A DNA stretch of 64,000 bases from Lingula anatina. Lineage: Eukaryota > Animalia > Brachiopoda. Both the position numbers and the translations under genes were made by a program. Each line of letters begins with the position of its first letter. The first letter of the stretch is position 1. Shown here piece after piece: positions 29-45,287 of the stretch. The stretch is from assembly GCA_051362555.1 (NCBI GenBank), contig CM120644.1, forward strand, positions 12,670,567-12,734,566, written 5' to 3'. The notes under the pieces are model-generated. The model was not told where the DNA came from. It worked only from the letters and a program-made list of their open reading frames with translations, and searched no databases.

Positions 29-761
29 GAGACCTTTATTATGTTGGCAAAGGTGACAAATCAGGCATCAGACAAAGAGTTATTTAGGATGTAGAGGATA
101 TGTCTGGTACAAGATGACACAGGATGTAACAGAATATGTAAGTATGTCTGAGCAAAACAGGTACACTTTGTTTTAAGCTCTTCTATATAAAGATCTTCAG
201 GTACATTTCTTAATATGTATGTATTATCAGATACTATTCTGATCAGAATAAGCCATATTAACTTATTGTACTTAATACACATGGAAATTCAAACATTAGC
301 TTTTTGCTTTAAAGAGTTTTCTTATATTTTTACTCCCTGATGATGGTGACTGACAGTCACAGAAATATTGGAGGTAATACCAACATATTTTATAAGCTCT
401 TGATAAAAATAATAACAATAATTTAAATTTATACGTACAGAGATAATGAAACTGTTCTCTCATTTTCTTATTATGTTCACTCCAAAGACAGTGTGTTTGT
501 AAACTATTCAGATAGTGCCCATGTAGCATCAGTGACTAATTTGTAGTAGTTTAGGAGTTTTCAGTGTACTTGTAGTTTTATTATTTTTGCAAAATAATAG
601 GAAGGATCACAATTGATATACATCAGAAAAATTTATCTTTCTGCTGCAGATTGAAGCGTGTGATGCATGCCAAAGACAAAGTAAGATAAAGACTTGGAGC
701 CCAGAGCTTAATCCCATATCAGTCAGTGAGCCTCTGGAATTAATTGGGATGGATCTCATAG
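29..761 (+). pseudogene. GIN1/Ginger-like integrase fragments, two exons (29-137, 650-761)
   Basis: AG/GT-bounded exons read DLYYVGKGDKSGIRQRVI*...YVWYKMTQDVTEY | IEACDACQRQSKIKTWSPELNPISVSEPLELIGMDLIG. This matches the H2C2 zinc-binding region and the first catalytic Asp of Gypsy/GIN1 integrases. There is an in-frame stop, the His half of the finger is missing, and no remaining DDE core was found. Confidence 0.8.
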
Positions 762-1472
762 GTATAGTATCTATTGCTTTGAAGGTAGCAGAAATTTGTT
801 TTCTCTCTCAGAAAGGAATATACCGTATTAGGGTTAGGGATTTCAAGGGATCATTCAAGTTTTCAGTCAGTGTTTATTCAATGCATTGATCTTCACCAGT
901 GTGCTACCTAGAGTAAATTGATTAAATGTATCAATAATCAATATGTATGTCATGTAATTCAAAGGTTTATTAGAGCATCTGCACAAATGTTGGTAACATT
1001 CAAACTTTAAATTGTTGCCTCTGGTTACCTCCACAATATGAAGCTGTTCATAATGTTTCAAAGTGGTTTAATAGCATTTGTACTTGAACCTTAGTCGTAC
1101 AAGTACAGGTGCTTATTTTGTAATATACTTCTCTTATGTATAGACATGGCATCACTCACAAAACACAGATTGAAAATGTCTCTTCTTGTATAGCATAAGA
1201 GATAAAATTAAACAAACCTTTCCTTTACATTTTATTGTAGATGACTAGTTTGATTTTTCTATTACCTATTTAGTCTGTACATTTGGTAGCTTGTCTTGTA
1301 GCATTTACCAAGTTATCAGAATATAAATTTTTTTTTTAATGTATCCCTCGAAATAGTAGCTTTATTTACTTAATTACTTGTTAAATTAACAGAAACTACA
1401 AGCTTTGAAAAAGCTTTTTCAGGTATAAAGGAATTTTTAACTGTCTTACACTTTTTTCACTCTTATTTACAG

Positions 1473-1761
1473 AATACAGAAGCTATCCTTAAAGGAGCTG
1501 GACTGAACAGTATCGACAACGCACACTGCAAGTGGTTTAGGGAATATGTTAGACAGAAAATTAGAAAGAGTGGAAGAAAGTCAGAGGATGAAGCATGCGA
1601 CATAGCATTCTGCCAAAATAAAGGATACCATCGATGGATACAGTGCAGCACTTGCCAAAGTTGGCTACATACCATTTGTGCTAAAGTCAAATGTTCGAAA
1701 AAAAAAAACACTTCGTAAAACCCAGTTTACATGCCCAATTTGCATTTCTGTACAAGGTTAG
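1473..1761 (+). pseudogene. Terminal transposase exon with PHD finger, frameshifted in an A-run
   Basis: After a TTTACAG acceptor: NTEAILKG...FREYVRQKI...CDIAFCQNKGYHRWIQCSTCQSWLHTICAKVKCS, then after a shift in the A-run near 1698-1708, TLRKTQFTCPICISVQG*. This is the C4HC3 PHD pattern. The part before it may be the end of a Ulp1-like domain (weak). Confidence 0.75.
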
Positions 1762-4856: not shown

Positions 4857-5078
4857 AGTGAAATTTACTAAAACCAAGATCGTCTTAAACAGTAAAAACA
4901 TCAATTGCTTTTATTGTGTTTAAAAGAGTTTAATATAATTTGGATATGTTGACATTAATTAAATTTTCAAAATAAGTAAGTCTTATTAAAATATAAATAA
5001 AAGAGCTTGCCTTAAATAATGCGAACATATCCATATCATTCCGAATGCATCTTTCTTTGTGACAGTCCCCCATGTGCA

Positions 5079-5134
5079 ACTTCCGGTTTTTGGTGGAACG
5101 TAAAACGCGTTGAGCTTTAAAATTGTTATTTGAG
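5079..5134 (+). promoter_or_regulatory. Candidate TEX10 core promoter / non-coding first exon
   Basis: ETS-type motif ACTTCCGG at 5079-5086, a possible donor GAG|GTTTGT at 5134/5135, and an acceptor at 6037 just before the ATG. Confidence 0.4.
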
Positions 5135-5443
5135 GTTTGTATAAAGTATTAAATGCGTTCTACAACCGTAAAAATATATCTTTTATCATTTTATGTGATC
5201 CTGGGTTTTTATGTAAACGAAGATAAAGAATGATGCACTACAAAGAAATATTGCAGTTTACAAAGCTGGGAGACGGTTAACCCGAGTACGGGGCTACCTG
5301 CTAATGTTACACCCCAGTACACACACATTTTGACTGATTTGTCTTCTAGAATAATAATTGAATTGGTTATGGGATTACTAGTTTATACGACATACCCCTT
5401 AAAACTTTTGTCCATGAAGCATTTTGCTGTGTACATTTGACTC

Positions 5444-5939
5444 TGTAGCGATTTGGGGTGAGTGCAGAAAAACCACCGACCAGACCAGGAATCGAACCCG
5501 GGACCCCTCGCTTACAGGGCGAGTGCTCTTACCTACTAAGCTACCCGACCGGTTCTACCTGCCCCTGGCACTACACTCCTCCCCCCCAAATGCCGAAAGA
5601 CGCAAGCCCTATCTCGCAACACCATTGTAGCGATTTGGGGTGAGTGCAGAAAAATCACCAGCCAGACCAGGAATCGAACCCGGGACCCCTCGCTTACAGG
5701 GCGAGTGCTCTTACCTACTAAGCTACCCGACCGGTTCTACCTGCCCCTGGCACTACACTCCTCCCCCCCAAATGCCGAAAGACGCAAGCCCTATCTCGCA
5801 ACACCATTGTAGCGATTTGGGGTGAGTGCAGAAAAATCACCAGCCAGACCAGGAATCGAACCCGGGACCCCTCGCTTACAGGGCGAGTGCTCTTACCTAC
5901 TAAGCTACCCGGCCGGTTCTACCTGCCCCTGGCACTACA
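5444..5939 (-). mobile_element. Tandem TRIM (non-autonomous mini LTR retrotransposon) with tRNA-like sequence in its LTRs; Helenus/TRIMp3-like
   Basis: Three 132-bp LTRs with TGTAG...CTACA ends (5444-5575, 5626-5757, 5808-5939) and two identical 50-bp internals. On the minus strand each internal starts with a PBS-like TGGTGTTGCGAG and ends with the PPT GGGGGGGAGGAG. The 4-bp TSD ACTC is at 5440-5443 and 5940-5943. Confidence 0.92.
5478..5550 (-). other. tRNA-like cloverleaf with Pol III A and B boxes in LTR 1 (repeated at 5660-5732 and 5842-5914)
   Basis: GGTCGGG-TA-GCTTAGTAGGTAAGAGC-A-CTCGC-CCTGTAA-GCGAG-GGGTC-CCGGG-TTCGATT-CCTGG-TCTGGTC, 73 nt. Anticodon position TGT, C instead of U33, G-U-rich acceptor stem, TTTTT run 5 nt downstream. 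Confidence 0.85.
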
Positions 5940-6052
5940 ACTCTGTACAGTATGTCCATGTGTGCATTTAATGTGTGGATCACATTCCATTATTAATTTT
6001 GATGGATATTTATAGTTTTATACTATTAATTCCTAAGATTCGATCTGCAAAC

Positions 6053-9000
6053 ATGGCAAAGAAGAAGAAGAACCAAGATTTCCAGAAAGTGAAACTGAAA
6101 GTGGGCCGTAAGTTACCCCGGGAGAGTTCAACCAACACCAGCTTCAAGACCCACTCCATTCAGATCAAGGAGCAGTTGACTCAGGCCAGCTCTACTGAGC
6201 CTACAACTAAGAGGAAGCTGAAGATTGAGGTAGGTTGTATGCGTTGTCACAGATTAACATATATAGGCACTTTTTCACAACAATGTATACAGACACATAT
6301 TGTCACAGATAAACACAGTTATGTACAAATTACATGTAGGCATGGTGCCAAAAGTAAAAGTATTTAGACATATTGCCAAAGCTTAACATATTCAGACATG
6401 TATTCACGACAAAACACATGATTATAGACACAGCTAAACATTTAGACACATTTTACTTCTGAGATAGCCCTACCTTACACCAGTAACACATGAATCACTC
6501 CTAATAATGCAATCAGTACATATTACAAAATATTTTCGGTAAGTTGCTGTAGGAGCTTGAATGATGCATTTCAGGACCTGTTGAGTCAGTTGCAGCACTA
6601 CAATGCAGGTTCCAGACACGGTGCCGTTGCAGGCCTTCGGGAACTTGTCGCTACACACCCTGCTCTCATTTCACAGCACCTGGCAGCCATGTTGGAAAAA
6701 GTGACTCCGCTCTTTATGGATAAGGATTCTGTGGTGAGGCAAGCCGTGATTAAGTTACTGAAGGTGGTGCTCTCAAATACTGACACGGGAGAATTGGTGC
6801 CTTTCTTTGGCATTCTCAGCAGCCATCTTAGCTGTGCCATGACACACATAGTAGAGGACATCCGATTGGATGCCTTGTCTGTCCTTGACGTTTGTCTTGA
6901 ATTCCACCCCAAGTTGATCATCACAGGGACATCTCAGTTACTGCCCAATTTCATTGATCAGATATCGCAGTGCCAGTCCCAAGGGAGTAAATCGGGAGCT
7001 TTCTCTTTGACTATAAACCCCAGTGGAAAGATGGGGGCGCTGAAATGGAGGGGGAAAGTCTTGGAGAGACTAAACAGGTTCCTGTCTGTTTATCTGGAAA
7101 GTTTCCCCAAGAGGACTGGAATGTTTGAAACAAGTGAGGTCTGTCATGTCGGGTGGAAGGATGATGGGATAACATGTTACCAGCCCTGCTCTTCTGTGGG
7201 ATTGATAAACAGTGATTTTACATTCAGGTAACATATAAGGATGTGTTGAAGCAAAAGTATTTGCTAGTACTGTTAAAGAAAACCACTCAAAAACAGATGA
7301 ATGAAGCAGTCTTAATTCTTACAAACTTACCCTAGCAACTTCAGTCTAACTTATACATTGTTGTCCATTTATTCGATAAATTTTCTTATAATGATACTGA
7401 TATAATTTTTATATTTCGGCAAGAAGTTCCCGTTAGTTCTGACAGTTCAATTTTACTATGAGAACCAATCTCTTGCACAAGTTCCTTTTTTTAGTAAACA
7501 ATTTTTAAATTCCTATTTGTGTACTGGTTGTCTGTTCATTTTTTTCTTGATTATGTTTTGAATATTATATGGTTATTCTGTCTAGTTGCAGTTCTTCTCC
7601 TGATTGTTCTTATTTTTTTAACTTTTAAATTTTTTATTTTTGAACCGCAGGTCGTCATTGTTGCCACAGCAGTCTCTTTCAACAGGTGCTGATTATTTGA
7701 AGAACTTCATTGGCACTGTTGTCCCCCTATTGTTTCAGTGTTGGGTAGAAGTCTTACCAGAGAATTCTGCAGGTAAATTTGCGAGACATGTTTCTTTGTT
7801 TAATATTCTGTCAGTCTTTTTCATTAGAAAATCTATTTTCAATATTACAGCACCTTAAATGTTAGATGTAAACGAAATGACACCATAATTATATTGTTCT
7901 CTTACATCATTTTTCATGGAATTTCCCCCCTCCCCCCCCCCCCCCCCCCCCAAGAACTCACCACTGTAACAGTCTTTCTACTTGTGTGGTTTTATAAGGT
8001 CACCCACTTCCAGTGGACAGTCATCCCACCATGTTTTGTGTGTTGCAAATCCTACAACATTTAGGGCTTTGTGTGGAAGCTCTTGGGGCAGAAGATCAAG
8101 CACTGTCTGTAAGTAGATAGTGTAGTTAGATTTTTTTAGGTGAACTCAAAATACATAGCAGTGCTTGGGCTTCTTAAATGGAAGATATTTTGGATAAATA
8201 CATGGTTGTCATTTTTAACAATTTCATTTATTAGTGATAAAGATCCTGCTAAGTGTTAGAATTGGTTTAAATTGATGATATTTTTAGGAAAAACTGGACA
8301 ATATGGAATTGCAGACTATAAAAATGATTGTGTGAATTTACTGAAAAAAGAAGAGCTTTTAACAGTTTACAAATCTTTCAGATGAATGCAATAATTGTAA
8401 TTTTATATCATTATTTATATGATATTATTTTATTTTCTAGTTGGATTGGCTGTATGGGTTCTACCATAAAGACCTGAGACAACACATTCAGCCTCACTTT
8501 CCTTTTTCTTTCTGTGATACTGCCAAAAGAAACAGAAAAGCAAACAGGGTGAATGTTAAAGTAAGGGAAATTTACTCAGTACTCCCCTTTCTCTTGTTAC
8601 TGTAAAGTAATGATTTACTTAATGCCAGTAATAATTACTATGTCACTTGCTGATGTTTATCGTTATTATTCTTTGCCCAGTTAGTACATTCAATTTATTT
8701 TCTTTCATTCAAAAAAGGAGGAATGATTTAGAACTTATTTTTTTCTTTTAGTCCCTCGCTCTGGATCTGAACCTGTGTTTCTGTGGGACTGTCTGCACAT
8801 TTTATAAAACACATGACAAACCAGACAGCAGACCTTTACAGGGAATATCCACAGCAGAAGACAGTTTATTGAAGATGGCAGTTAGCTACATGACACAGGC
8901 ATTTCCAACACCACATAACCCAGACCAGAGGAAAAAATCTGTTGCTATCATGAAGATGTTGGTGGAATGCTGTAGAACATCAAGTAAATATGCTTTATTT

Positions 9001-17214: not shown

Positions 17215-19228
17215 TTAAAGATCTAGTTTATATCCAAAATAACTTGCATCTTCCTTGTAAATATCCCAGACTTGCCTGGCCAATCTTTGGTCAATCCTGC
17301 TGTAGTACTTGTGTATTAGCTTCTGTCTAAAAGGAATATCCGCCCGATGGGATTGCGGGAATTGGCTTATCAAGTTTTCAGCATCAATCAGATGAAACAG
17401 GTTTGCTGCATCAGTTTGCAGAGTTTCGTGATGAACAATGATGTCATACTCAATATAACAGGGTCTACAAAAGTCATAAACTAAATTCCAGTGAATATTG
17501 TCTGGTCCATTATCCACTATATACCAAAGTAAATCCTGAAATGTTATGTCTTTGTTTTTTGAAATGTTCCTGTTGTACTGCTGGTTGATATAAGCTTTCA
17601 CTAGAGGACCTAGCTGGCGTGGCACTTGCTCCTTGAAAACTGACACAATTCGTTCTATTGGGTGACGCACAACTAAAACCTTAAGATAGTTTTTAATGCG
17701 CATTCTTCTTTCGCTATTGTTGAATGTGACTAACGGGGTAAAGGTTTGCTTCTTGTTCTTGTTGGATGTTAGATTTGATGAAGAAAAATGCCCAGTTAGC
17801 ATGTTATATACTATTTTCCAGTTACGACTTGCGGCTTTATACATGAAACACAAAATGAGTTTGTGTTTGTCATCGACAAGAATCCATTTTGCACTAAACT
17901 TATGGGAGTATGAAACATTTCTCCTGTTGTGGCATCTGTCTTGTAACAAACTTTTTCTTCTTTTGATGACTGACACCCAATCTTCTGGCACTTTGTTCCA
18001 ACTGAATGACTGAAAGAATATTTTAAAAAGTCACATCAACTGAGAAATGTGGTGAATGTATAAGAGGTGGCCAACAAAGATCACACACAAGCGTGGAAGC
18101 AGAGTATCTAATGGCACAGCTCAAATCTGTGTAGTTTGATGGGGTTTAAATAGATATGGGATAATGAAATTTGGTATGGAATTGTAGTTTTGAGATAATA
18201 TTTACTTTTGCTTTAAATCTGTAGCTATCTGTGTGTAATTTCTGTAGCACTGAGATGCAAGTCGAATAGTTTGCCTTTAAAACTATTTATCATCAAATCA
18301 CATGCAAAGCAAAAAAATAAAATGGAAGCAACTCTGATATTTTTTATATACTGATACACAGTGAATAGGAATGTTTGATCAAACTGGTGTTGATAAAAAT
18401 ATTGAGAGATGTACAGAGAAATACCTGCCAGATTGTATCATCTATGACATCATTCTCTTGATTGTATTTATCTCCGAGAATGCAGTATGAAAAAAAAAAA
18501 CACTAACCTTTACATTTACTTCATATTGATTCTTTTTGAAGTGTATACATTTACACATGGAGAAACTGGTGAAATTTTTGATAAAATATTGAGAGATGTA
18601 CAGAGAAATACCTGCCAGATTGTATTATCTATGACATCATTCTCTTGATTGTATTTCTGTGTTCCATTAGAGATGTTGATATATTTGTCTTTAAATTCAT
18701 CTTGATTTGCTTCTTTGCTTAGGTGAATTTCAGCAGGTTGAAAAGGGTGAATCTGGGCTAGGCGTTGGCTGCCTAAAAACATTGCACAATTATGTGATGA
18801 AAGCTGAGTCAATTTGATTTTATATGAATGTCAATTGAATACATAAATCCTTATGATTACCATCCACTTATTTGGAATAAGTTGGCAAGATAGTAACCCA
18901 AAACACACCTATGTAATTCAGTTTAAATGAAGCTTTCAGTTGGATTTTGTTTCATACATATTCCAATTTTCTTAAAATAATATTTTTTACCAAAAATTCC
19001 CTGCACTTTCTATTTACCTTAGATCGTTTAAAACAGGTCTTATAATACTTCTTCCAATTCCAATAATACTTGTTTTAAACTAGATATAATCAATATTTGT
19101 GTTATTGTAAGCAACAAGTTACAAAAATTTCAAACAATATACTTACCCATCCAATACAAAAAGAACAATATTGCAGAGCACTGAGTTATTACCAGTAAAA
19201 CAACAAGGACCTTTGTCCATGCCATCAT
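17215..19228 (-). CDS. Carbohydrate sulfotransferase (Sulfotransfer_2, CHST8-14/HNK-1ST-like), copy A, about 345 aa
   Basis: Exons 19147-19228 (MMAWTKVLVVLLVITQCSAILFFLYWM, type II anchor), 18612-18772 (stem) and 17215-18009 (catalytic). Motifs: LCFMYKAASRNW, VRHPIERIVS, HW...CRPC..YD, IYKED..FGY. Confidence 0.9.
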
Positions 19229-23262: not shown

Positions 23263-25118
23263 TTAAAGATCTAGTTTATATCCAAAATAACTTGCGTCTT
23301 CCTTGTAAATATCCCAGACTTGCCTTGCCAATCTTCGGTCAATCCCTCTGAAGTATTTTTGTATTAGCGTCTGGTTGCTAGGAATTTCAACCTTGCGATG
23401 GGATTGCGGGAATTGACTTATCAAGTTTTCAGCATCAAGAAGTTGAAACAGGTTTTCTGCATCAGTTAGTAGAGTTTCGTGATGAACAATGATGTCGTAT
23501 TCAACATAGCAGGGTTTACAGGTGTCTGTTAAACTCCAGTGGTTGTTGATTGGCCCTTTATCGACTATATACTGAAGAAAATCTGAAAATAAAATATTTC
23601 TGCTTTTTGTAATGTTCCCATTGTAATTGCGGTTTATATAAGCTTTCACTCTAGGACCTATTTGACGTTCCCGCACTTGTTCTTTGTAAGCTGATACAAT
23701 TCGCTCTAATGGATGACGTACAACCATTACCTTAAGGTAATTTCTTAAGCGTGCCCTTATGCCATTGTTGTTGAAAGAGAGTAACTGCGTGTAATTGCCA
23801 GATTTTTTCTTGGTTATTGAATCTGATGAGGGATCAACCTGTCCAGAGAGAATCCAATACACCATTCCCCAGCTACGACTTGCAGCTTTATGCAGGGTGC
23901 AGAGAATGAGTTTGTGTTGGTCTTCCACAAGAATACGCTGTCCTATACCCACATGGGAGGTTGAAACATTTTTACTGTTGTGGCATCTGTCTTGTAACAT
24001 ACGCTTTCTTCTATTGATGACTGACACCCATTCTTCTGGCACCTTGTTCCAACTGAATGACTGAAAGAAAATCTTAAAAAATTACCTCAACAAAGAAACA
24101 TGTTTATGGGTAAAAAAGAGGTCAACAAAGATCACCGCACGCCAGTGTGGTGGCAGAGGTTCCAGTGGTGCAGTACAAATCTGTGCAATTTGATAGGGTT
24201 TTACATGTTATAGTTAAAATGCATATAGGATAATGTAATTGGATATGGCATTTTAGTTTTGAGATAATATTTACTTTTGCTTCAAAATCTTTAGTTGTCT
24301 GTGTGCATAATTACTGTGGCACGTGCAAAGCAAAATAATAGAATGGCGGCAACCCTCATATTTTTTATGTACTGATACACAGTGAATAGGAATGTTTGAT
24401 CTAACTAGTGAAAATATTGAGAAATAAGTAGAGAAATGTACGGAGAAATACCTGCCAGATTGTATCATCTATGGCACCATTCTCTCGATTGTATTTCTGT
24501 GTTCCATTAGCAATGTTGATATTTTTGCCTTTGAATTCATCTTGATTTGCTTCTTCTCTGTGGTGAACTTGAACAGGTTGAAAAGGGAGAACCTGGGCTA
24601 GGTGTTGGCTGCCTAAAAAATTGCACAATTATGTGATAAAAGTTGAGTCAATTTGATTTTATATGAATGTCTATTTAATACATAAATCCTTTTGATTACC
24701 ATCCGCTTAAATAAGTCAGCTGTCTTTTGGATTGCTATCTCGCCAACATATTCTATTCAAAGTAGAACATGTTGGCGAGATAGTAGTCCAAAACACATCT
24801 ACGTAATTCAGTATTCTTGAAGATTTAAGTTTGAATTTTTCAGACATATTCTAACTTTCTTAAGATAATATTTTTTTCATCTCAAATTCCATGCACTTTC
24901 CATTAACCATCGATTGTTTGAAACATATCTTATAATACTTCTCCCAATTTCATCAATAGTTGTTTTAAACTAGACATAATCAATGCTTGTATTATTTTAA
25001 CCAAAGAGTTACAAAGGGTTAAAGAAATATACTTACCCCTCCAATACAACAAGAACAATATTGCAGAGCACGGAGTTATTACCAGTAAAATGACAAGGAC
25101 CTTTTTCCATGCCATCAT
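23263..25118 (-). CDS. Carbohydrate sulfotransferase copy B, about 346 aa
   Basis: Exons 25037-25118, 24452-24612, 23263-24060. Motifs LCTLHKAASRSW, VRHPLERIVSAY, HW..CKPC. Frame open across the splice junctions. Confidence 0.9.
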
Positions 25119-26580: not shown

Positions 26581-27204
26581 TAAAAATAAATAAATAAACA
26601 AAAGACATGCAATAACCCCGACTCCGATTTTCACGGGCATACCCAGAAGGTATGCCCGATCGTCAGGAGGTTTATTAATTATAATAAAGTACAAATGCTC
26701 CGTACTGTTGAGCACTTTGTTCCACACTTACGCTTGTTATATATATATATGTTATATATTCTATTCGGTATATAATTCAAAATTAATAGTGTTTAAAACT
26801 GCAATTAAGATAATTAATTGTATTTATGTAGCAAATGGTTTGTTTTAGTGGTGGTATTAACTTTTTGGTAATACATCAACGTTTTGTTTGGGTCTTGTGT
26901 CTGCACATTTTGACCTTAAGAAGTTGACCAAGGCAAGGTGATAACAGGGTAAAGGAATGTCTTAGCTGCTGTGTATCTAGGCACACACATTTATATTTTA
27001 TGAAAGATGTTTTGGGGACTAATTCTAGCGAGCTGCATTCAGTGAGAAGTCATTCAGCTTTGTAGCTGCGGAGATATTTACCCGCAGTTTTATCAGCTAC
27101 ACTGTATTATCACTTACGTTTCTTTATTGTTATTTGTACACTGGTTATATTACCAGTCATCACTTTTTGTGGTTTCAAGATTTGGGGATGGCTATTTGTT
27201 ACTT
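25243..27204. repeat. Recent 981-bp direct tandem duplication
   Basis: ACGATCAATCCCACATC starts at 25243 and again at 26224. The copies are near-identical apart from (TA)n length. The paralogous region from 41593 has a single copy. Confidence 0.9.
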
Positions 27205-27683
27205 GGTGACATTATTTTCTTTGGATAATATTCAGTTTTCCCCCAGCCACCAGTTTTTGTTATTCAAGTTTCGGCGCTGGCTGTTTCCCTTTATTGGGTG
27301 ACTTCAAGTCTTGGATCACACACAGGCCAGTATTTATTTATTGTCTTCATTTTCCCCCCTTATTCATGTGTTCTTATCAATAGATTTATAATTTGTTGTG
27401 TGATGCAACAACAGTTGTTAGCTATTTTGTTTAGGTGTCACTTCATCATGTTATTCTTGATTTTTTTCTTTTGTGTGCATCTATTTTATTTATGTTTATA
27501 TTCCTATCGGGCCAGGAGTTTTGCAGTTTTCATATTTCCTATTTCCTGGCTGTCACTGACATGCCATAATCTATTCATATCCCCATTTTCCGATTGTCTC
27601 CGTGTCCGCATTACCAGGTGAAGTATTATTAGGGGTTTCTGGTCGACTAGGTAATATGTATTTTTGGAGTTGTTATGATCTTT

Positions 27684-27986
27684 GTTCTGGGTGTACTTCC
27701 CAGGTTTTTAACTGTTTGCCTAGTAGTGAGACCCCTGTGGTGGTATCTGGTATACTAGGTTCTGGGTGTATTTCCCAGGTTTTTAACTGTTTGCCTAGTA
27801 GTGAGAACCCTGTGGTGGTATCTGGTATACTAGGTTCTGGGTGTATTTCCCAGGTGTTTAACTGTTTGCCTAGTAGTGAGAACCCTGAGGTGGTATCTGG
27901 TATACTAGGTTCTGGGTGTATTTCCCAGGTGTTTAACTGTTTGTCTAGTAGTGAGAACCCTGAGGTGGTATCTGGTATACTAGGTT
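27684..27986. repeat. 75-bp minisatellite, 4 copies
   Basis: GTTCTGGGTGTA...GGTATACTAG repeated at a period of 75 bp; paralog at about 43367-43670. Confidence 0.9.
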
Positions 27987-30045
27987 TATATTTTGTGGGA
28001 GCTGTTATGCCCCTATTCACCTAGCTGTATGTTCGTTTGCCTAGTCGGTTTTACCAGATATCCCTGTTTTTACGTGCACGGCTAAGCTGAGGCTGTTGCC
28101 TGCATGGATTTTCTCTGGCGGCAGACTAGGAGATGTTTTCTGCACTTTTAATATCAATATGGCTCGTGCCATATCTACCCAAGCTATTCGTTGGGTTTAT
28201 GCCGGGTATATATGTTCTCTGTACAAGTGTATATTTTATTCATATTACTTATTCCGTTTACTTGAATTACCTGGCCTGGGAAATTTTATTACTGAATTGT
28301 CTTATATATAAATGCAACTGCCTTTGCGCGGACTTCTTAGTTTCCTTTGTCTTTATGTTACCATGCCTTCCAAGACCCCTCCCGGGAGGAGTACCGTAGG
28401 CGATCCAGGATGTCGGTTGTCTCCAATGCGCGCTCATTATCCAGCAAATGACGATTGGCTCTTACATCCACTGCTCCTGGTGGAAAGAAGCCGAGTCACA
28501 CCGCCACACACTTCTTCTGAGACGGAATCAACCTCTACTTCACTTGTTATCGACTGCGATTTGTTGGCACAGCGTATTATTGCTCATCAAAACTGCTCAG
28601 AGGCACAGAAATGCCGAGCGCTTCTCCTTCTCCCGACTCCTCCCTGCAAGAGACTAACGTTCAGCAGCAGATACCCTGTACCCAGTATCAGCAGTCTGTT
28701 CGACACTGTAAACACACGGTGTGAGCTTCTCTCACATCATATGGCCTTTTATTTTCATTTGCGCCAACTTTTTGCTCCTATAGCTGTTGTGATTTCTCAT
28801 ATTTTTCTTGATTAATCCTGGTTACACTCATTAACATACTTTATTATTTTTATATTATGGCACTTATATAGTTTGGGGGATGTTTGATTATCTCCCCAGT
28901 TTTGTAACTTTGTATCTTATTAGTTTTCGTCATTTATAAATGACAATTTATTTTATAAACCATAGACGTGTAGGAAATATATAAATATTTATTTATAAAT
29001 TTTTACTGCCTGTTCCCAAGAGCGTTAAATGCCCCTACACTCGCCTTAGTGTCATCATTCAAAAAGTTTCTGTTGAATTGTGATTTAATTATAAATATTA
29101 GCCTTGCAATAAATTGTAACTGTCAAGCATCAGGGCCCGGTAGAACCGGTGGCACTGGTAGCTGAGGCGTGGCAGTTTCGCCATAGTAACTGCAGCGCAA
29201 AACGATACGTCCGAGAAAAACAGTTGCACCACCAGGTCCATCTAACAGAGCTTATTAGTCAAATGCTTTGCTGAGAAATTAACCTGTTATCGGTTATACG
29301 ATCAGATGGAACTATTGCTCCTTGTCATCTAAAAAATATTTTGTTTGGGTGCTTTGAAATGCCAGAAAATCGTGCTTTTGATACATTTTCCGATCACACG
29401 TTAGACTTGTAAGCGTGCCGTCATTTTCATTGACAGCTCTGGAGAGGGCCCTATCCTAGTGATGCCCAGTCGGGTGTCAAGGATATGTAGAAAGAAGCGC
29501 TTACAAAGGCGATTACGTTTAACCGCAGTTAACCGGTGAAGCTGCATTTGAACGTTTCAGTGGGTCTTCCTCGGCAATCGAGTAATTTTACCTCGGAGAT
29601 TCCTTCTTTGTTATCGGCCAAGTGATCAGATGATCTGTCGAGAGCAAGTGGCCGTCACTTGTGTTAATACGAGATTTTTACAGGTAACGCTACAGGATTA
29701 CTGTGGATTGCCTCAAATACCAGATCATTCACCGTACTTTAGGCCAATATGAAGTTATTAATTATTTTATGAATAGGTTTGATTTTCTTTCTTTCCTCTG
29801 GAAATGCATTTTTAACACGAACTTTTCTCTTCCCCATAACGTACTTGACTTCTTCACTGCTTAGCTGATGTAAGACTTATGACCTATTACCGCCCACGTA
29901 ATCGGCTTATAACTTATTAACTATGATCCGACCCTTCATGGCAACGGCCCTTAGCAACAGAGGCGTGGCTTAGTCGTCAGCCTGACTGGGGCGCGTTGTC
30001 GGTTGAAAACTCATCAAAAGACACATTTTGCAGTGCAAATTCAAA

Positions 30046-30799: not shown

Positions 30800-33700
30800 T
30801 TAAAGATCTAGTTTATATCCAAAATAACTTGCATCTTCCTTGTAAATATCCCAGACTTTCCTTGTCAATCTTCGGTCAATCCCTCTGAAGTATTTTTGTA
30901 TTAGCGTCTGGTTGCTAGGAATTTCAACCTTGCGATGGGATTGCGGGAATTGACTTATCAAGTTTTCAGCATCAAGAAGTTGAAACAGGTTTTCTGCATC
31001 AGTTAGTAGAGTTTCGTGATGAACAATGATGTCGTATTCAACATAGCAGGGTTTACAGGTGTCTGTTAAACTCCAGTGGTTGTTGATTGGCCCTTTATCG
31101 ACTATATACTGAAGAAAATCTGAAAATAAAATTTTTCTGTTTTTTGTAATGTTCCCATTGTAATTGCGGTTTATATAAGCTTTCACTCTAGGACCTATTT
31201 GACGTTCCCGCACTTGTTCTTTGTAAGCTGATACAATTCGCTCTAATGGATGACGTACAACCATTACCTTAAGGTAATTTCTTAAGCGTGCCCTTATGCC
31301 ATTGTTGTTGAAAGAGAGTAACTGCGTGTAATTGCCAGATTTTTTCTTGGTTATTGAATCTGATGAGGGATCAACCTGTCCAGAGAGAATCCAATACACC
31401 ATTCCCCAGCTACGACTTGCAGCTTTATGCAGGGTGCAGAGAATGAGTTTGTGTTGGTCTTCCACAAGAATACGCTGTCCTATACCCACATGGGAGGTTG
31501 AAACATTTTTACTGTTGTGGCATCTGTCTTGTAACATACGCTTTCTTCTATTGATGACTGACACCCATTCTTCTGGCACCTTGTTCCAACTGAATGACTG
31601 AAAGAAAATCTTAAAAAATTACCTCAACAAAGAAACATGTTTATGGGTAAAAAAGAGGTCAACAAAGATCACCGCACGCCAGTGTGGTGGCAGACGTTCC
31701 AGTGGTGCAGTACAAATCTGTGCAATTTGATAGGGTTTTACATGTTATAGTTAAAATGCATATAGGATAATGTAATTGGATATGGCATTTTAGTTTTGAG
31801 ATAATATTTACTTTTGCTTCAAAATCTTTAGTTGTCTATGTGCATAATTACTGTGGCACGTGCAAAGCAAAATAATAGAATGGCGGCAACCCTGATATTT
31901 GTACCACCAGCGTTAGCGCTGGCGGTACACATGGTTTCGGTCCCGTCCGGATCGTTCTGCCGGCTCCGCCGGCTCCATTGGCTCTGCCGGCTCCGCCGGA
32001 CGGCTACCGTTACCGCTTCTCCTCCTAGACGGTAAGGGCCCCCGTACCCATCTCATGGATTTAGGTCACCTATAATCTCAACTCGTTCCACGTAAAATTT
32101 GGGCTTTGTCGGTATTGGGGTCTGGGTGTGGCACTCATTGCAATGCACCCTTGTCTAAAAATGGCAAAATTAAATGCTAATTATCTACCCTACGGAAGGA
32201 GTTATGGGAAAAATTTCTATAGACGGCTTTCCAAAAGTCATATGTGTAGATTTCAAATATACCCTTGGATTTGACCTTTGACCTTTACTTCAAGGTCAAA
32301 TGGGCCAAAATTTTCAAAAAAATGAAATTTTTTACGAAAAATATTTTTTTTGCCCTGCTATTCAGACACCACACAGATTTAACCAGTAATATTATTGGAA
32401 GGTGTTACCCTTCAGGTCATCTTTCATCTCCATGAATTTGGGGTCAATCGGTGCATTTTCACGGGAGTAGCGGCCATAAGATACCGAAACTGAAAACTGT
32501 CTCTAATTCGGGAACCGTTAATGCTAGAGACCCATTCTTTTTTGCAATTTGTAGAGCATGTAAAGCCCAACACTGGAGGTTATCTCGGTTTTTTTGTATT
32601 CCATACGGTTTTTGAGTTACGCTGTATCAAAAAGTACATATTGGTGGTAAAAGCAAAATGTGCAGAATGGTAATGGATAATAAATTTTGAACTCTGGAAA
32701 AATAAAACATAAGGCTTGGCAAAGCAGACAACTTGTGTTCAAAAATGACATTATTTCATCAAATTTGAACTTCTGAAACTTCAGAGCACCTCCTATTTCA
32801 AGAATTTTGACCAAAATGACATTTTCTTTATTTTAATTAATTTTTTTCTGTACGAAATTTAAGGCACATTATGGTAACTCCAAAATTATAACATTTAGTC
32901 CCTTATATCTCCAAAACTGGCAGAGATAGGTCCATAGTTACTATTGAACTTGAATAGGAAGTCATATACTGGCAATCTTACTATGACCTTGAAAGTGACC
33001 TTTGACCTACTTTTCACCATGAACTGAACTTTGCAAATTTTTCTTCCCTTTTATCTCCAAAACTGGCAGAGATAGGTCCATAGTTACTATTGAACTTGAA
33101 TAGGAAGTCATATACTGGCAATCTAAATGTGACCTTAAAATTGACCTTTGACCTACTTTTCACCATAAACTGAACTTTGCAAAATTTGCTTCCCTTTTAT
33201 CTCCAAAACTGGCAGAGATAGGTCCATAGTTACTATTGAACTTGAATAGGAAGTCATATACTGGCAATCTAAATGTGACCTTAAAATTGACCTTTGACCT
33301 ACTTTACACCATGAACTGAATTTTGCAAATTTTGCTTTCCTTTTATCTCCAAAACTGGCTGAGATAGGTCCATAGTTACTATTGATCTTGAATAGGAAGT
33401 CATATACTGGCAATCTTACTATGACCTTGAAAGTGACCTTTGACCTACTTTTCACCATGAACTGAACTTTGCAAATTTTTCTTCCCTTTTATCTCCAAAA
33501 CTGGCAGAGATAGGTCCATAGTTACTATTGAACTTGAATAGGAAGTCATATACTGGCAATCTAAATGTGACCTTAAAATTGACCTTTGACGTACTTTTCA
33601 CCATAAACTGAACTTTGCAAAATTTGCTTCCCTTTTATCTCCAAAACTGGCAGAGATAGGTCCATAGTTACTATTGAACTTGAATAGGAAGTCATATACT

Positions 33701-35767
33701 GGCAATCTAAATGTGACCTTAAAATTGACCTTTGACCTACTTTACACCATGAACTGAATTTTGCAAATTTTGCTTTCCTTTTATCTCCAAAACTGGCTGA
33801 GATAGGTCCGTAGTTACTATTGAACTTGAATAGGAAGTCATATACTGGCAATCTAAATGTGACCTTAAAATTGACCTTTGACCTACTTTACACCATGAAC
33901 TGAATTTTGCAAATTTTGCTTTCCTTTTATCTCCAAAACTGGCTGAGATAGGTCCGTAGTTACTTTTGAACTTGAATAGGAAGTCATATACTGGCATTAT
34001 AAATGTGACCTCAAAATTGACCTTTGACCTACTTTTCACCATGAACTGAACTTTGCAAATTTTGCTTCCCTTTTATCTCCAAAACTGGCAGAGATAGGTC
34101 CATAGTTACTATTGAACTTGAATAGGAAGTCATATACTGGCAATCTAAATGTGACCTTGAAATTGACCTTTGACCTACTTTTCACCATAAACTGAATTTT
34201 GCAAATTTTGCTTCCCTTTTATCTCCAAAACTGGCTGAGATAGGTCCATAGTTACTATTGAACTTGAATAGGAAGTCATATACTGGCAATCTAAATGTGA
34301 CCTTGAAATTGACCTTTGACCTACTTTTCACCATGAACTGAACTTTGCAAATTTTGCTTTCCTTTTATCTCCAAAACTGGCAGAGATAGGTCCATAGTTA
34401 CTATTGAACTTGAAAAGGAAGTCATATACTGGCAATCTAAATGTGACCTTAAAATTGACCTTTGACCTACTTTACACCATAAACTGAATTTTGCAAATTT
34501 TGCTTTCCTTTTATCTCCAAAACTGGCTGAGATAGGTCCGTAGTTACTATTGAACTTGAATAGGAAGTCATATACTGGCATTATAAATGTGACATTAAAA
34601 TTGACCTTTGTCCTACTTTTCACCATAAACTGAACTTTGCAAATTTTGCTTCCCTTTTATCTCCAAAACTGGCAGAGATAGGTCCATAGTTACTATTGAA
34701 CTTGAATAGAAAGTCATATACTGGCAATCTAAATGTGACCTTGAAATTGACCTTTGACCTACTTTTTATCATGAACTGAACTCTGCTAATTTCTTTCTCT
34801 TTTAACTTCAAACATGACAGAGATAGGTCCATAGTTACTCTTGAACTTGAATAGGAAGTCATATACTGGCAATTTACTGTGACCTTGAAATTGACCCTTG
34901 ACCTACCTTACGAAGAACTTAAATTTGATTGTACCATATATATTTTTTGCAATAGTTTAAAAATTCTTGTTGATTGCATTTTTACAGCTTGTCAAGCACA
35001 AAACTGGTGGCTGTGTCCCTTATTTTGTGTATGTGGGGGTCTATACGAATGCGCTTGCTCCAGCTGGTGGTACAATATTCGGAGGCGGTATCGCCTCTCT
35101 GATCCTCTAGTTTTTTATGTACTGATACACAGTGAATAGGAATGTTTGATCTAACTAGTGAAAATATTGAGAAATAAGTAGAGAAATGTACGGAGAAATA
35201 CCTGCCAGATTGTATCATCTATGGCACCATTCTCTCGATTGTATTTCTGTGTTCCATTAGCAATGTTGATATTTTTGCCTTTGAATTCATCTTGATTTGC
35301 TTCTTCTCTGTGGTGAACTTGAACAGGTTGAAAAGGGAGAACCTGGGCTAGGCGTTGGCTGCCTGAAAACATTGCACAATTATGTGATAAAAGTTGAGTC
35401 AATTTGATTTTATATGAATGTCTATTGAATACATAAATCCTTTTGATTACCATCGGTTTAAATAAGTCAGATGTGTTTTGGATTGCTAATTGGCGAGATA
35501 GTAACCCAAAACACATGAAGCTTTCAGTGGTCATCAAAAACTGGGAATTTTTCAAAGACATAATCTAACATTATAATTAAGATGTTGTGTCATATAATAC
35601 TTCTTTCAATAACATCAATAGTTGTTTTATCAATCGATACTTATGTAATTGAAAGAGTTACAAAAATTTAAAACAATATACTTACCCATCCAATACAAAA
35701 AGAACAATATTGCAGAGCACTGAGTTATTACCAGTAAAACGACAAGGACCTTTTTCCATGCCATCAT
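30800..35767 (-). CDS. Carbohydrate sulfotransferase copy C, about 346 aa (3.2-kb insertion in intron 2)
   Basis: Exons 35686-35767, 35202-35362, 30800-31597. The catalytic exon differs from copy B at 4 residues and exon 1 resembles copy A. Confidence 0.88.
31898..35110 (+). mobile_element. Non-autonomous Helentron/DINE-1-like element (HINE) with central tandem repeats
   Basis: Inserted in a T-run with no TSD; empty sites at 24361 and 40711. 5' TTTGTACCACCAG with an adjacent palindrome, a CCGG/CCGT simple-repeat tract, 3' sub-TIR CTGGTGGTACAA, 3' hairpin GAGGCG-GTAT-CGCCTC, and end CTAG|TTTT. Confidence 0.85.
32906..34905. repeat. 146-bp tandem repeat array, about 13.7 copies, inside the HINE
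   Basis: TATCTCCAAAACTGG recurs at 32906, 33052, 33198 and onward. Most units contain TGACCTTTGACCT. Confidence 0.92.
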
Positions 35768-39450: not shown

Positions 39451-41468
39451 TTATAGAGGAACTAACTCAATGGCTAAAAAAGAAAACAAATATGAAAAAG
39501 GCAAATTAATTAAGTTCCAACATTTGACAATGATCTGTGTTGTAAAGTATATCTGGATTATTTTTGGCTTAAATGGACATGACAACTGTCTGTGTAGTAT
39601 AGCACTTGATATTTGAAGATCTAGTTTATATCCAAAATAACTTGCGTCTTCCTTGTAAATATCCCAGACTTGCCTTGCCAATCTTCGGTCAATCCCTCTG
39701 AAGTATTTTTGTATTAGCGTCTGGTTGCTAGGAATTTCAACCTTGCGATGGGATTGCGGGAATTGACTTATCAAGTTTTCAGCATCAAGAAGTTGAAACA
39801 GGTTTTCTGCATCAGTTAGTAGAGTTTCGTGATGAACAATGATGTCGTATTCAACATAGCAGGGTTTACAGGTGTCTGTTAAACTCCAGTGGTTGTTGAT
39901 TGGCCCTTTATCGACTATATACTGAAGAAAATCTGAAAATAAAATATTTCTGCTTTTTGTAATGTTCCCATTGTAATTGCGGTTTATATAAGCTTTCACT
40001 CTAGGACCTATTTGACGTTCCCGCACTTGTTCTTTGTAAGCTGATACAATTCGCTCTAATGGATGACGTACAACCATTACCTTAAGGTAATTTCTTAAGC
40101 GTGCCCTTATGCCATTGTTGTTGAAAGAGAGTAACTGCGTGTAATTGCCAGATTTTTTCTTGGTTATTGAATCTGATGAGGGATCAACCTGTCCAGAGAG
40201 AATCCAATACACCATTCCCCAGCTACGACTTGCAGCTTTATGCAGGGTGCAGAGAATGAGTTTGTGTTGGTCTTCCACAAGAATACGCTGTCCTATACCC
40301 ACATGGGAGGTTGAAACATTTTTACTGTTGTGGCATCTGTCTTGTAACATACGCTTTCTTCTATTGATGACTGACACCCATTCTTCTGGCACCTTGTTCC
40401 AACTGAATGACTGAAAGAAAATCTTAAAAAATTACCTCAACAAAGAAACATGTTTATGGGTAAAAAAGAGGTCAACAAAGATCACCGCACGCCAGTGTGG
40501 TGGCAGAGGTTCCAGTGGTGCAGTACAAATCTGTGCAATTTGATAGGGTTTTACATGTTATAGTTAAAATGCATATAGGATAATGTAATTGGATATGGCA
40601 TTTTAGTTTTGAGATAATATTTACTTTTGCTTCAAAATCTTTAGTTGTCTATGTGCATAATTACTGTGGCACGTGCAAAGCAAAATAATAGAATGGCGGC
40701 AACCCTCATATTTTTTATGTACTGATACACAGTGAATAGGAATGTTTGATCTAACTAGTGAAAATATTGAGAAATAAGTAGAGAAATGTACGGAGAAATA
40801 CCTGCCAGATTGTATCATCTATGGCACCATTCTCTCGATTGTATTTCTGTGTTCCATTAGCAATGTTGATATTTTTGCCTTTGAATTCATCTTGATTTGC
40901 TTCTTCTCTGTGGTGAACTTGAACAGGTTGAAAAGGGAGAACCTGGGCTAGGTGTTGGCTGCCTAAAAAATTGCACAATTATGTGATAAAAGTTGAGTCA
41001 ATTTGATTTTATATGAATGTCTATTTAATACATAAATCCTTTTGATTACCATCCGCTTAAATAAGTCAGCTGTCTTTTGGATTGCTATCTCGCCAACATA
41101 TTCTATTCAAAGTAGAACATGTTGGCGAGATAGTAGTCCAAAACACATCTACGTAATTCAGTATTCTTGAAGATTTAAGTTTGAATTTTTCAGACATATT
41201 CTAACTTTCTTAAGATAATATTTTTTTCATCTCAAATTCCATGCACTTTCCATTAACCATCGATTGTTTGAAACATATCTTATAATACTTCTCCCAATTT
41301 CATCAATAGTTGTTTTAAACTAGACATAATCAATGCTTGTATTATTTTAACCAAAGAGTTACAAAGGGTTAAAGAAATATACTTACCCCTCCAATACAAC
41401 AAGAACAATATTGCAGAGCACGGAGTTATTACCAGTAAAATGACAAGGACCTTTTTCCATGCCATCAT
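39451..41468 (-). CDS. Carbohydrate sulfotransferase copy D, stop-loss variant, about 400 aa
   Basis: Exons 41387-41468, 40802-40962, 39451-40410. Offset exactly 16350 bp from copy B with the same catalytic-exon protein, but TAA is CAA at 39613-39615, adding 54 aa. Confidence 0.85.
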
Positions 41469-42840: not shown

Positions 42841-43366
42841 TTGGTATTCAAGATTCAGCGACGGCTGTTGACGGCTATTTGTTACTTGGTGACTTTATTT
42901 TCTTCGGACAATATTCAGTTTTCCCCAGTCACCAGTTTTTGTTATTCAAGTTTCGGCGCCGGCTGTTTCCTTTTATTGGGTGACTTCAAGTCTTGGATCA
43001 CACACTGGCCAGTATTTATTTATTGTCTTCATTTTCCCCCCTTATTCATGTGTTCTTATCAGTAGATTTATAATTTGTTGTGTGATGCAACAACAGTTGT
43101 TAGCTATTTTGTTTAGGTGTCACTTCATCATGTTATTCTTGATTTTATTTCTTTTGTGTGCATCTATTTTATTTATGTTTATATTCCTATCGGGCCAGGA
43201 GTTTTGCAGTTTTCATATTTCCTATTTCCTGGCTGTCACTGACATGCCATAATCTATTCATATCCCCATTTTCCGATTGTCTCCGTGTCCGCATTACCAG
43301 GTGAAGTATTATTAGGGGTTTCTGGTCGACTAGGTAATATGTATTTTTGGAGTTGTTATGCTCTTT

Positions 43367-43670
43367 GTTCTGGGTGTACTTCCCAGGTTTTTAACTGTTT
43401 GCCTAGTAGTGAGAACCCTGTGGTGGTATCTGGTATACTAGGTTCTGGGTGTATTTCCCAGGTGTTTAACTGTTTGCCTAGTAGTAAGAACCATGAGGTG
43501 TTATCTGGTATACTAGGTTCTGGGTGTATTTCCCAGGTGTTTAACTGTTTGCCTAGTAGTGAGAACCCTGTGGTGGTATCTGGTATACTAGGTTCTGGGT
43601 GTAGTTCCCAGGTGTTTAACTGTTTGCCTAGTAGTGAGAACCCTGAGGTGGTATCTGGTATACTAGGTTT
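43367..43670. repeat. 75-bp minisatellite, 4 copies (paralog of 27684-27986)
   Basis: Same unit and period as 27684-27986. Confidence 0.88.
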
Positions 43671-45287
43671 ATATTTTGTGGGAGCTGTTATGCCCCTATT
43701 CTGGGTAGTCACCTAGCTGTATGTTCGTTTGCCTAGTCGGTTTTACCAGATATCCCTGTTTTTACGTGCACGGCTAAGCTGAGGCTGTTGCCTGCATGGA
43801 TTTTCTCTGGCGGCAGACTAGGAGATGTTTTTTGCACTTTTAATATCAATATGGCTCGTGCCATATCTACCCAAGCTATTCGTTGGGTTTATGCCGGGTA
43901 TATATGTTCTCTGTACAAGTGTATATTTTATTCATATTACTTATTCCGTTTACTTGAATTACCTGGCCTGGGAAATTTTATTACTGAATTGTCTTATATA
44001 TAAATGCAACTGCCTTTGCGCGGACTTCTCAGTGTCCTTTGTCTTTATGGTACCATGCCTTCCAAGACCCCTCCCGGGAGGAGTACCGTAGGCGATCCAG
44101 GATGTCGGTTGTCTCCAGTGCGCGCTCATTATCCAGCAAATGACGATTGGCTCTTACATCCACTGCTCCTGGTGGAAAGAAGCCGAGTCACACCGCCACA
44201 CACTTCTTCTGAGACGGAATCAACCTCTACTTCACTTGTTATCGACTGCGATTTGTTGGCACAGCGTATTATTGCTCATCAAAACTGCTCAGAGGCACAG
44301 AAATGCCGAGCGCTTCTCCTTCTCCCGACTCCTCCTTGCAAGAGATTAACGTTCAGCAGCAGATACCCTGTACCCAGTATCAGCAGTCTGTTCGACACTG
44401 TAAACACACGGTGTGAGCTTCTCTCACATCATATGGCCTTTTATTTTCATTTGCGCCAACTTTTTGCTCCTATAGCTGTTGTGATTTCTCATATTTTTCT
44501 TAATTAATCCTGGTTACACTCATTAACATACTTTATTATTTTTATATTATGGCACTTATATAGTTTGGGGATGTTTGATTATCTCCCCGGTTTTGTAACT
44601 TTGTATCTTATTAGTTTTCGTCATTTTCCTATCACACGTTAGACTTGTAAGCGTGCCGTCATTTTCATTGACAGCTCTGGAGAGGGCCCTATCCTAGTGA
44701 TGCCCAGTCGGGTGTCAAGGATATGTAGAAAGAAGCGCTTACAAAGGCGATTACGTTTAACCGCAGTTAAGAGGGGTGAAGATGCATTTGAACGTTTCAG
44801 TGGGTCTTCCTCGGCAATCGAGTAATTTTACCTCGGAGATTCCTTCTTTGTTATCGGCCAAGTGATCAGATGAAACTGTCTGTCGAGAGCAAGTGGCCGT
44901 CACTTGTGTTAATACGAGTTTTTTACAGGTAACGCTGCAGGATTACTGTGGATTGCCTCTAATACCAGATCATTCACCGTACTTTAGGCCAATATGAAGT
45001 TATTAATTATTTTATGAATAGGTTTGATTTTCTTTCTTTCCTCTGGAAATGCATTTTTAACACGAACTTTTCTCTTCCCCATAACGTACTTGACTTCTTC
45101 ACTGCTTAACTGATGTAAGACTTATGACCTATTACCGCACATATAATCGGCTTATAACTTATTAACTATGCTCCGCCCCCTCATGGCAATGGCCCTTAGC
45201 AACAGAGGCGTGGTTTAGTCGTCAGCCTGACTGGGGCGCGTTGTCGGTTGAAAAACTCATCAAAAGACACATTTTGCGGTGCAAATT

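What the first reader, a model, noticed from the sequence alone, without database searches (positions are those of the whole stretch)
5444..5939. Mini LTR retrotransposon whose LTRs are built around a complete tRNA-like Pol III module, as a 3-LTR tandem
Seen: TG...CA LTRs of 132 bp, a 50-bp internal that is little more than PBS plus PPT, a 4-bp TSD (ACTC), and in each LTR a 73-nt cloverleaf with A box, B box and a perfect anticodon stem. Known: Cassandra TRIMs carry 5S-derived sequence in their LTRs, and as I recall the recently named Helenus (TRIMp3) group carries tRNA-like sequence and makes 4-bp TSDs in animals. Inference: this is a SINE/LTR hybrid mobilised in trans by a Gypsy-type partner, probably a new family for this genome. 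It is easily mis-annotated as three tRNA genes or a satellite.
Basis: partly seen in the sequence, partly recalled or inferred. Interest (0 to 1): 0.8.

Follow-up and report, generated by a model that had tools for sequence, protein, structure and literature searches.

The report
Broken copy of known Helenus mini-retrotransposon
This is a real but ordinary copy of a gene-less jumping element described in 2024 (Helenus-1_LAn, from the brachiopod Lingula), which carries a tRNA look-alike in each end repeat; this copy lies in a gene's first intron, is missing from some individuals, has lost most of its priming site and was likely doubled in place by unequal recombination.

Summary
The anatomy is real: three 132-bp LTRs, two identical 50-bp internals, a 4-bp TSD and a tRNA-like module in each LTR, all reading on the minus strand. 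It is not a new family. The supplement of Kojima 2024 (PMC10886601) holds Helenus-1_LAn from Lingula anatina (LTR 132, internal 59, TSD 4); the window's LTRs differ from it at 3-4 of 132 bases (by eye). Contigs of 3 of 4 DNA runs show the empty site; one run holds both filled junctions. The element lies antisense in the 5'-UTR intron of an Ipi1/TEX10-type gene. The middle LTR is a mosaic of the outer two, as unequal crossover predicts; L3I2 tandems are a known TRIM form. Pol III transcription and the Gypsy helper remain untested. The scan noted Helenus-type elements before in other genomes, none like this sequence. Verdict: already known, low interest.

The parts
5440..5443 (.). Target-site duplication, left copy (ACTC)
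   Evidence: single copy in the empty allele (joint 5439 to 5940)
5444..5575 (-). 3' LTR, 132 bp; 3 differences from published Helenus-1_LAn-LTR (nt 28, 38, 103)
   Evidence: one search compared by eye
5477..5550 (-). tRNA-like module in the 3' LTR
   Evidence: Rfam RF00005 53.4 bits; ARAGORN
5576..5625 (-). Internal region, 50 bp: PBS remnant (9-bp deletion at 5619/5620) and polypurine tract (5576-5587) abutting the 3' LTR
5626..5757 (-). Middle LTR: like the 3' LTR at nt 28 and like the 5' LTR at nt 97, 98, 103, with no private change
5659..5732 (-). tRNA-like module in the middle LTR
   Evidence: Rfam 54.1 bits
5758..5807 (-). Internal region, 50 bp, identical to the other: PBS remnant (deletion at 5801/5802) and polypurine tract (5758-5769)
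5808..5939 (-). 5' LTR, 132 bp; 3 differences from the published LTR (nt 38, 97, 98)
   Evidence: by eye
5841..5914 (-). tRNA-like module in the 5' LTR: A box 5907-5896, B box 5862-5852
   Evidence: Rfam 57.2 bits
5832..5836 (-). T5 run just behind the tRNA-like module (same place in all three LTRs; the only T4+ runs in the element); predicted Pol III terminator
   Evidence: function inferred
5940..5943 (.). Target-site duplication, right copy (ACTC)
5135..6037 (+). Host context: 5'-UTR intron (GT..AG, 903 bp with the element, 403 without) that holds the element in antisense
   Evidence: 4 RNA reads of run X11 with a loose end before 6036 that matches the exon ending at 5134; splice sites
6038..7231 (+). 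Host context: Ipi1/TEX10-type gene; exon 6038-6229 (ATG 6053), intron 6230-6574, next exon with Ipi1_N domain
   Evidence: 32 spliced reads; PF12333 E 1.1e-18; the name TEX10 is recalled

Best explanation
This is a copy of the published miniature LTR retrotransposon Helenus-1_LAn, inserted at an ACTC site in the first intron of an Ipi1/TEX10-type gene and absent from some individuals; it has lost 9 bp of its primer-binding site, so it is likely no longer mobile, and it was likely doubled in place by unequal crossover between its two LTRs. How the family works (inferred): RNA polymerase III starts at the tRNA-like module of the 5' LTR. Most transcripts likely stop at the T5 run behind it, and some read through the internal region to the T5 run of the 3' LTR, so the whole tRNA-like module would serve as the R repeat. 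A Gypsy-type helper then packages the RNA, primes it with host tRNA-Leu at the PBS, uses the PPT for the second strand and integrates the DNA with a 4-bp TSD. History of this copy. Shown: insertion, PBS deletion in both internals, mosaic middle LTR. Inferred order: insertion of a two-LTR element, then deletion between two GGTG microhomologies in the PBS, then unequal exchange giving LTR-I-LTR-I-LTR.
For: Family: 128-129 of 132 LTR bases and all termini match Helenus-1_LAn; Table S1 gives LTR 132, internal 59, TSD 4. Mobility: joints that skip the element in X3, X2 (500 bp = 496 + 4) and X4, X2 (505 bp), both filled junctions in X1; 4 runs, 3 studies. Dispersed copies: LTR depth thousands against tens in the flanks, and loose ends with mutually unlike flanks at the LTR termini. 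[quoted passage not shown] S2A over 14 nt, the window over 5; the 9 extra bases stand in X2 and X3 contigs and as loose ends in X1, X3 and X4 contigs, in 2 of 2 X14 reads, and in 4 of 8 X11 reads plus 3 loose ends. Tandem: both internals share the deletion and one substitution; the middle LTR switches once, in the direction unequal crossover predicts. This mechanism is discussed in PMC11899658, and L3I2 is the commonest tandem TRIM form in maize, 63 of 93. Animal Helenus PBSs resemble only Gypsy PBSs.
Against: Only three informative clusters support the mosaic, and 2 of their 8 possible patterns would fit, so this support is modest. Nt 97-98 is a roughly 50:50 family dimorphism (4185 of 8235 in X1) and nt 103 varies in the family too, so the outer LTRs probably differ through gene conversion or recombination with other copies, which complicates the history and forbids LTR dating. 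All three LTRs share T at nt 38, yet X1, which holds both junctions, shows no contig with it nor with the deleted PBS: either X1 carries a different state of the insertion or its contigs dropped a rare variant. No Pol III transcript was seen. Element reads in X11 run both ways and carry alleles and flanks of other copies; X14 gave only 10 laid reads in all. No helper element was identified.
Confidence: 0.85

Rival explanations
1. The tandem was inserted as such, from a read-through transcript or a one-LTR circle, and not made in place.
For: PMC11899658 Discussion holds both routes open; a weak T5 terminator would favour read-through; all three LTRs share a change (nt 38) not seen in other copies.
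Against: Both internals carry the broken PBS, which is predicted not to prime; the middle LTR is a one-switch mosaic of the outer two; a freshly reverse-transcribed element should have identical outer LTRs (established mechanism), and these differ at 4 sites.
Confidence: 0.08
2. The PBS-deleted form is a mobile subfamily that switched primer tRNA or primes without a PBS.
For: The junction restores TGGTG next to the LTR; Helenus lineages have changed primer tRNA several times.
Against: No listed contig or read spans the deleted junction; where resolved, all carry the intact form (tables are cut and contigs drop rare variants). The deletion has the microhomology signature of a single accident. 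Host tRNAs could not be searched.
Confidence: 0.03
3. Three real tRNA-Thr(TGT) genes, or a 182-bp satellite.
For: ARAGORN, Rfam and TRF call them so; a bivalve Helenus with the same anticodon loop is listed as a possible tRNA-Thr.
Against: TG..CA termini, PPT, TSD and empty alleles; C33 and weak acceptor stem; Helenus-1_LAn is not among the families of Fig. S1 predicted able to encode a tRNA.
Confidence: 0.02
4. The third LTR is an assembly artefact of a normal two-LTR copy.
For: No listed contig bridges the array; the two internals are identical and the middle LTR has no private base.
Against: Tandem TRIMs are PCR-validated elsewhere and seen in zebrafish Helenus. Reads of the source animal were not available, so this was not tested directly.
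Confidence: 0.05

Closest known systems
Helenus-1_LAn, Lingula anatina (Kojima 2024, PMC10886601; read main text parts 1-4 and 6 of 6, and supplement parts 1, 7, 9, 10 of 11 plus a term search)
   Same: LTR length 132, sequence 97-98% identical, same termini, tRNA-like module, PPT, one-base spacer before the PBS, 4-bp TSD.
   Different: This copy has three LTRs and two internals, a 9-bp PBS deletion, one further internal substitution and a change at LTR nt 38. The paper's main text reports tandems only for LTR-11_DR and has no occurrence of 'polymorphi'.
Tandemly arrayed TRIMs, L3I2 type (Gao et al. 2016, PMC4717578, passages read; Morales-Diaz et al. 2025, PMC11899658, abstract and Discussion read)
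   Same: Shared internal LTR, one TSD pair around the array, polymorphic between individuals.
   Different: Those are plant elements without a tRNA-like LTR.
Cassandra (5S-derived TRIMp3; as described in PMC10886601, and search listings)
   Same: Small-RNA-type Pol III promoter inside the LTR; tandem arrays.
   Different: 5S type promoter, plants, short 18-bp R; Pol III transcription is validated for Cassandra and not for Helenus.

Membership tests
TRIM | Two or more direct LTRs with TG..CA ends, unit under 1 kb, no coding capacity | tested here: met
   (only chance stop-to-stop frames of 90-97 aa); unit 314 bp
TRIM | PPT next to the 3' LTR | tested here: met
   12-nt purine run at 5576-5587 and 5758-5769
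TRIM | Intact tRNA-complementary PBS next to the 5' LTR | tested here: not met
   Not met in this copy (5 of 14 nt left); met in the family and in other copies. A defective member, since descent from the family is shown by sequence.
TRIM | TSD and insertion into an empty site | tested here: met
   empty single-ACTC allele in X3 and X2; a second empty allele in X4 and X2
TRIM | Dispersed copies with different flanks | tested here: met
   loose ends at LTR termini and depth excess; TSDs of other copies not read
Helenus (TRIMp3) | tRNA-like sequence with A and B boxes in the LTR | tested here: met
Helenus (animal) | 4-bp TSD | tested here: met
   Table S1
Helenus-1_LAn | Sequence identity to the published consensus | tested here: met
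   128-129 of 132 LTR nt; internal 49 of 50 aligned nt plus a 9-nt gap; compared by eye. The differing positions reappear as majority or common alleles.
Helenus (TRIMp3) | Transcription by RNA polymerase III | not testable with these tools
   poly(A)-type and fragmented RNA-seq only; no start or end pile-up; also untested in the paper
Helenus (animal) | Mobilisation by a Gypsy element | not testable with these tools
   no genome held; inference in the paper from PBS likeness
Functional tRNA gene | U33 and a sound acceptor stem | tested here: not met
   C33, 3-4 G-U pairs of 7; rule from textbook knowledge

The most novel reading that the evidence does not exclude
Helenus elements turn a whole tRNA-type gene, promoter plus a deliberately leaky T4-T6 terminator, into the R repeat of an LTR: stopping at the first run yields a short tRNA mimic, reading through to the second yields the genome. 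The run is kept right behind the module in 10 of the 13 mollusc, brachiopod and nemertean LTRs shown whole (by eye), and the 2024 paper mentions 'terminator' only for Cassandra. This polymorphic, three-promoter antisense insertion in the first intron of a ribosome-biogenesis gene would be a natural test of whether such modules alter host Pol II genes.
Probability: 0.3. Interest if true: 0.45.

Novelty: already known. Interest (0 to 1): 0.17.

Why it matters
As a discovery it matters little: the family is published with a near-identical sequence. It adds a few facts that I did not find in the paper: Helenus-1_LAn shows presence/absence polymorphism, forms an L3I2 tandem here, and is called as tRNA-Thr genes by ARAGORN and Rfam, a practical annotation trap. 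Filled and empty alleles in a gene's first intron would make a convenient locus for the open question of whether Helenus is really Pol III-driven and affects host genes.

Tried and rejected
No whole genome is held, so copies, their TSDs, host tRNAs and the helper could not be counted or searched. BLASTN of LTR and internal against the window found no further copy; best outside hit E 0.022. No RNA holder listed in the run index; this is no evidence. RNA reads (about 6 in 100 of each run read) showed no start or end pile-up and none carried this copy's private alleles at 5902 or 5786; the donors' genotype at the site is unknown, so nothing follows about this copy's expression or its effect on the host gene. 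Whole-LTR folding is not stronger than dinucleotide shuffles (z -0.27 to -1.55). LTR-LTR dating was rejected because the differing sites are family variants. Summed contig depth was not used as a copy number. 'Goes back 182' joints are the normal internal-to-3' LTR junction and do not show other tandems. Of 9 holder runs (3 studies) I laid 4, and 2 of 9 RNA runs. A translation check of the host exons was out of frame and is not used. Literature: 'Helenus'+'Lingula' gave only the 2024 paper; 'TRIMp3' or 'Helenus' from 2024 on gave 21 papers, 12 listed, seen as listings only. Repbase/Dfam and bioRxiv supplements were not available.

Full report
Observation. The window holds, on the minus strand, LTR(5939-5808) - internal - LTR(5757-5626) - internal - LTR(5575-5444), with ACTC on both sides. 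LTRs are 132 bp and differ pairwise at 1, 3 and 4 sites; the two 50-bp internals are identical. The element is 57% G+C in a 36% window, and no other copy lies in the 64 kb. Each LTR carries a 74-nt tRNA-like module (Rfam RF00005, 53-57 bits; ARAGORN tRNA-Thr(TGT)) with A box at nt 33-44, B box at nt 78-88 and a T5 run at nt 104-108. The module has C33 and 3-4 G-U pairs in the acceptor stem and folds no better than shuffles, so it is a promoter-like mimic and unlikely to be a working tRNA.

Identity. Kojima 2024 (PMC10886601) defines Helenus as TRIMs with tRNA-like LTRs and 4-bp TSDs in animals, with three families in Lingula anatina. A term search of its supplement with short motifs from the window hit Helenus-1_LAn (shown again): LTR 132, internal 59, full length 323, TSD 4. 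By eye the 5', middle and 3' LTRs differ from it at 3, 4 and 3 positions. The host is therefore very likely Lingula anatina (inference).

The PBS. [quoted passage not shown] S2A. That assignment is mine; the figure does not list the Lingula families. Both window internals lack 9 of these bases, between two GGTG repeats, leaving 5. Public runs confirm that the intact form is the rule: a 9-base insertion relative to the window in X3 and X2 contigs, matching loose ends in X1, X3 and X4, in 2 of 2 X14 reads, and in 4 of 8 X11 reads with 3 more as loose ends. No listed record spans the deleted junction, though the tables are cut and contigs drop rare variants.

Mobility and polymorphism. Four DNA runs from three studies were laid on 4900-6500. 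X3 and X2 have contigs that join 5439 to 5940, skipping the 496-bp element plus one ACTC. X4 and X2 have a second empty allele lacking 5 more bases. X1 has contigs running from the left flank 28 bases into the LTR and from the LTR into the right flank. So 3 of 4 runs show an empty site and 1 of 4 a filled one. Depth over the LTR is thousands against tens to low hundreds in the flanks, and loose ends with mutually unlike flanks begin at the LTR termini: a dispersed multi-copy family.

The tandem. At the variable sites the middle LTR follows the 3' LTR at nt 28 and the 5' LTR at nt 97, 98 and 103. That is the product expected when the 3' LTR of one chromatid crosses over with the 5' LTR of another. 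The shared PBS deletion says both internals come from one copy. Support is modest (2 of 8 patterns would fit). Two things do not fit neatly: nt 97-98 and 103 are family variants, so the outer LTRs may have been converted by other copies; and X1 shows neither the nt-38 change common to all three LTRs nor the deleted PBS although it holds both junctions. L3I2 tandems are the commonest tandem TRIM form in maize (PMC4717578), tandem arrays are reported for zebrafish Helenus, and both recombination and tandem transposition are discussed as routes (PMC11899658).

Host context. RNA reads of X11 splice 6229 to 6575 (32 reads), and 4 reads end before 6036 with letters that match the exon ending at 5134; the sites are GT..AG. 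The downstream exon encodes an Ipi1_N domain (E 1.1e-18). The element therefore lies antisense in the 5'-UTR intron of an Ipi1/TEX10-type gene, 113 bases upstream of the ATG at 6053. Element-matching RNA reads carry alleles and flanks of other copies and run both ways in X11; X14 has too few reads to interpret.

Mechanism. Shown: LTR-type integration (TSD, empty site), tRNA-like promoter boxes, PPT, family PBS. Inferred: Pol III initiation at the module, partial read-through of the first T5 run and termination at the second, tRNA-Leu priming, and a Gypsy helper (the paper infers Gypsy for animal Helenus, and states that Pol III activity is unvalidated). The T-run sits behind the module in 10 of 13 lophotrochozoan LTRs shown whole (by eye), while the paper's one mention of 'terminator' concerns Cassandra. 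This is the only point with some novelty, and it is untested.

Verdict. A real, correctly described element, filed as a defective, polymorphic, tandem copy of a published family. Searches for later work on it found only the 2024 paper. The scan's notes hold 55 findings with the same key words in at least 18 genomes and no look-alike of this sequence; they did not change my reading. Already known; interest 0.17.

Noticed in passing
window 5444-5950: A second empty allele (X4, X2) lacks 5 more bases right of the target site, between two GTA repeats; X1's filled allele shares left-flank SNPs (5400-5414) with this allele and not with the window. Recombination close to the junction is the likely cause; unexplained.
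   Followed up: partly
window 5808-5939 (each LTR): LTR nt 1-25 pairs with nt 100-132 at -21.9 kcal/mol (p 0.004 against mononucleotide shuffles; 0.0075 without the terminal repeats), extending the acceptor stem into a long hairpin, but the whole LTR is not more stable than dinucleotide shuffles.
   Followed up: partly
window 17215-18030, 23263-24081, 30800-31618, 39451-40431, 46114-46923, 53097-53915: Six similar minus-strand ORFs of about 270 aa in tandem; the one scanned is Sulfotransfer_2, E 1.8e-37: a local sulfotransferase gene expansion.
   Followed up: partly
window 27200-28800 and 42900-44500: Near-identical duplicated blocks, each with four copies of a 75-bp unit; segmental duplication or a repeat element.
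   Followed up: no
window 32899-34906: 146-bp tandem array, 13.8 copies, 94% matches; further 61-, 68- and 110-bp arrays at 59007-60897.
   Followed up: no
window 617-1718: Short frames that look like a decayed integrase piece (recalled resemblance; no Pfam hit) and a weak PHD-finger hit below cut-off, E 5.9e-4.
   Followed up: partly
window 4919-5342: Alleles in the flanks differ strongly (7 of 132, 5 of 144 bases, plus an 11-base indel at 5275), so the species is very polymorphic here.
   Followed up: no
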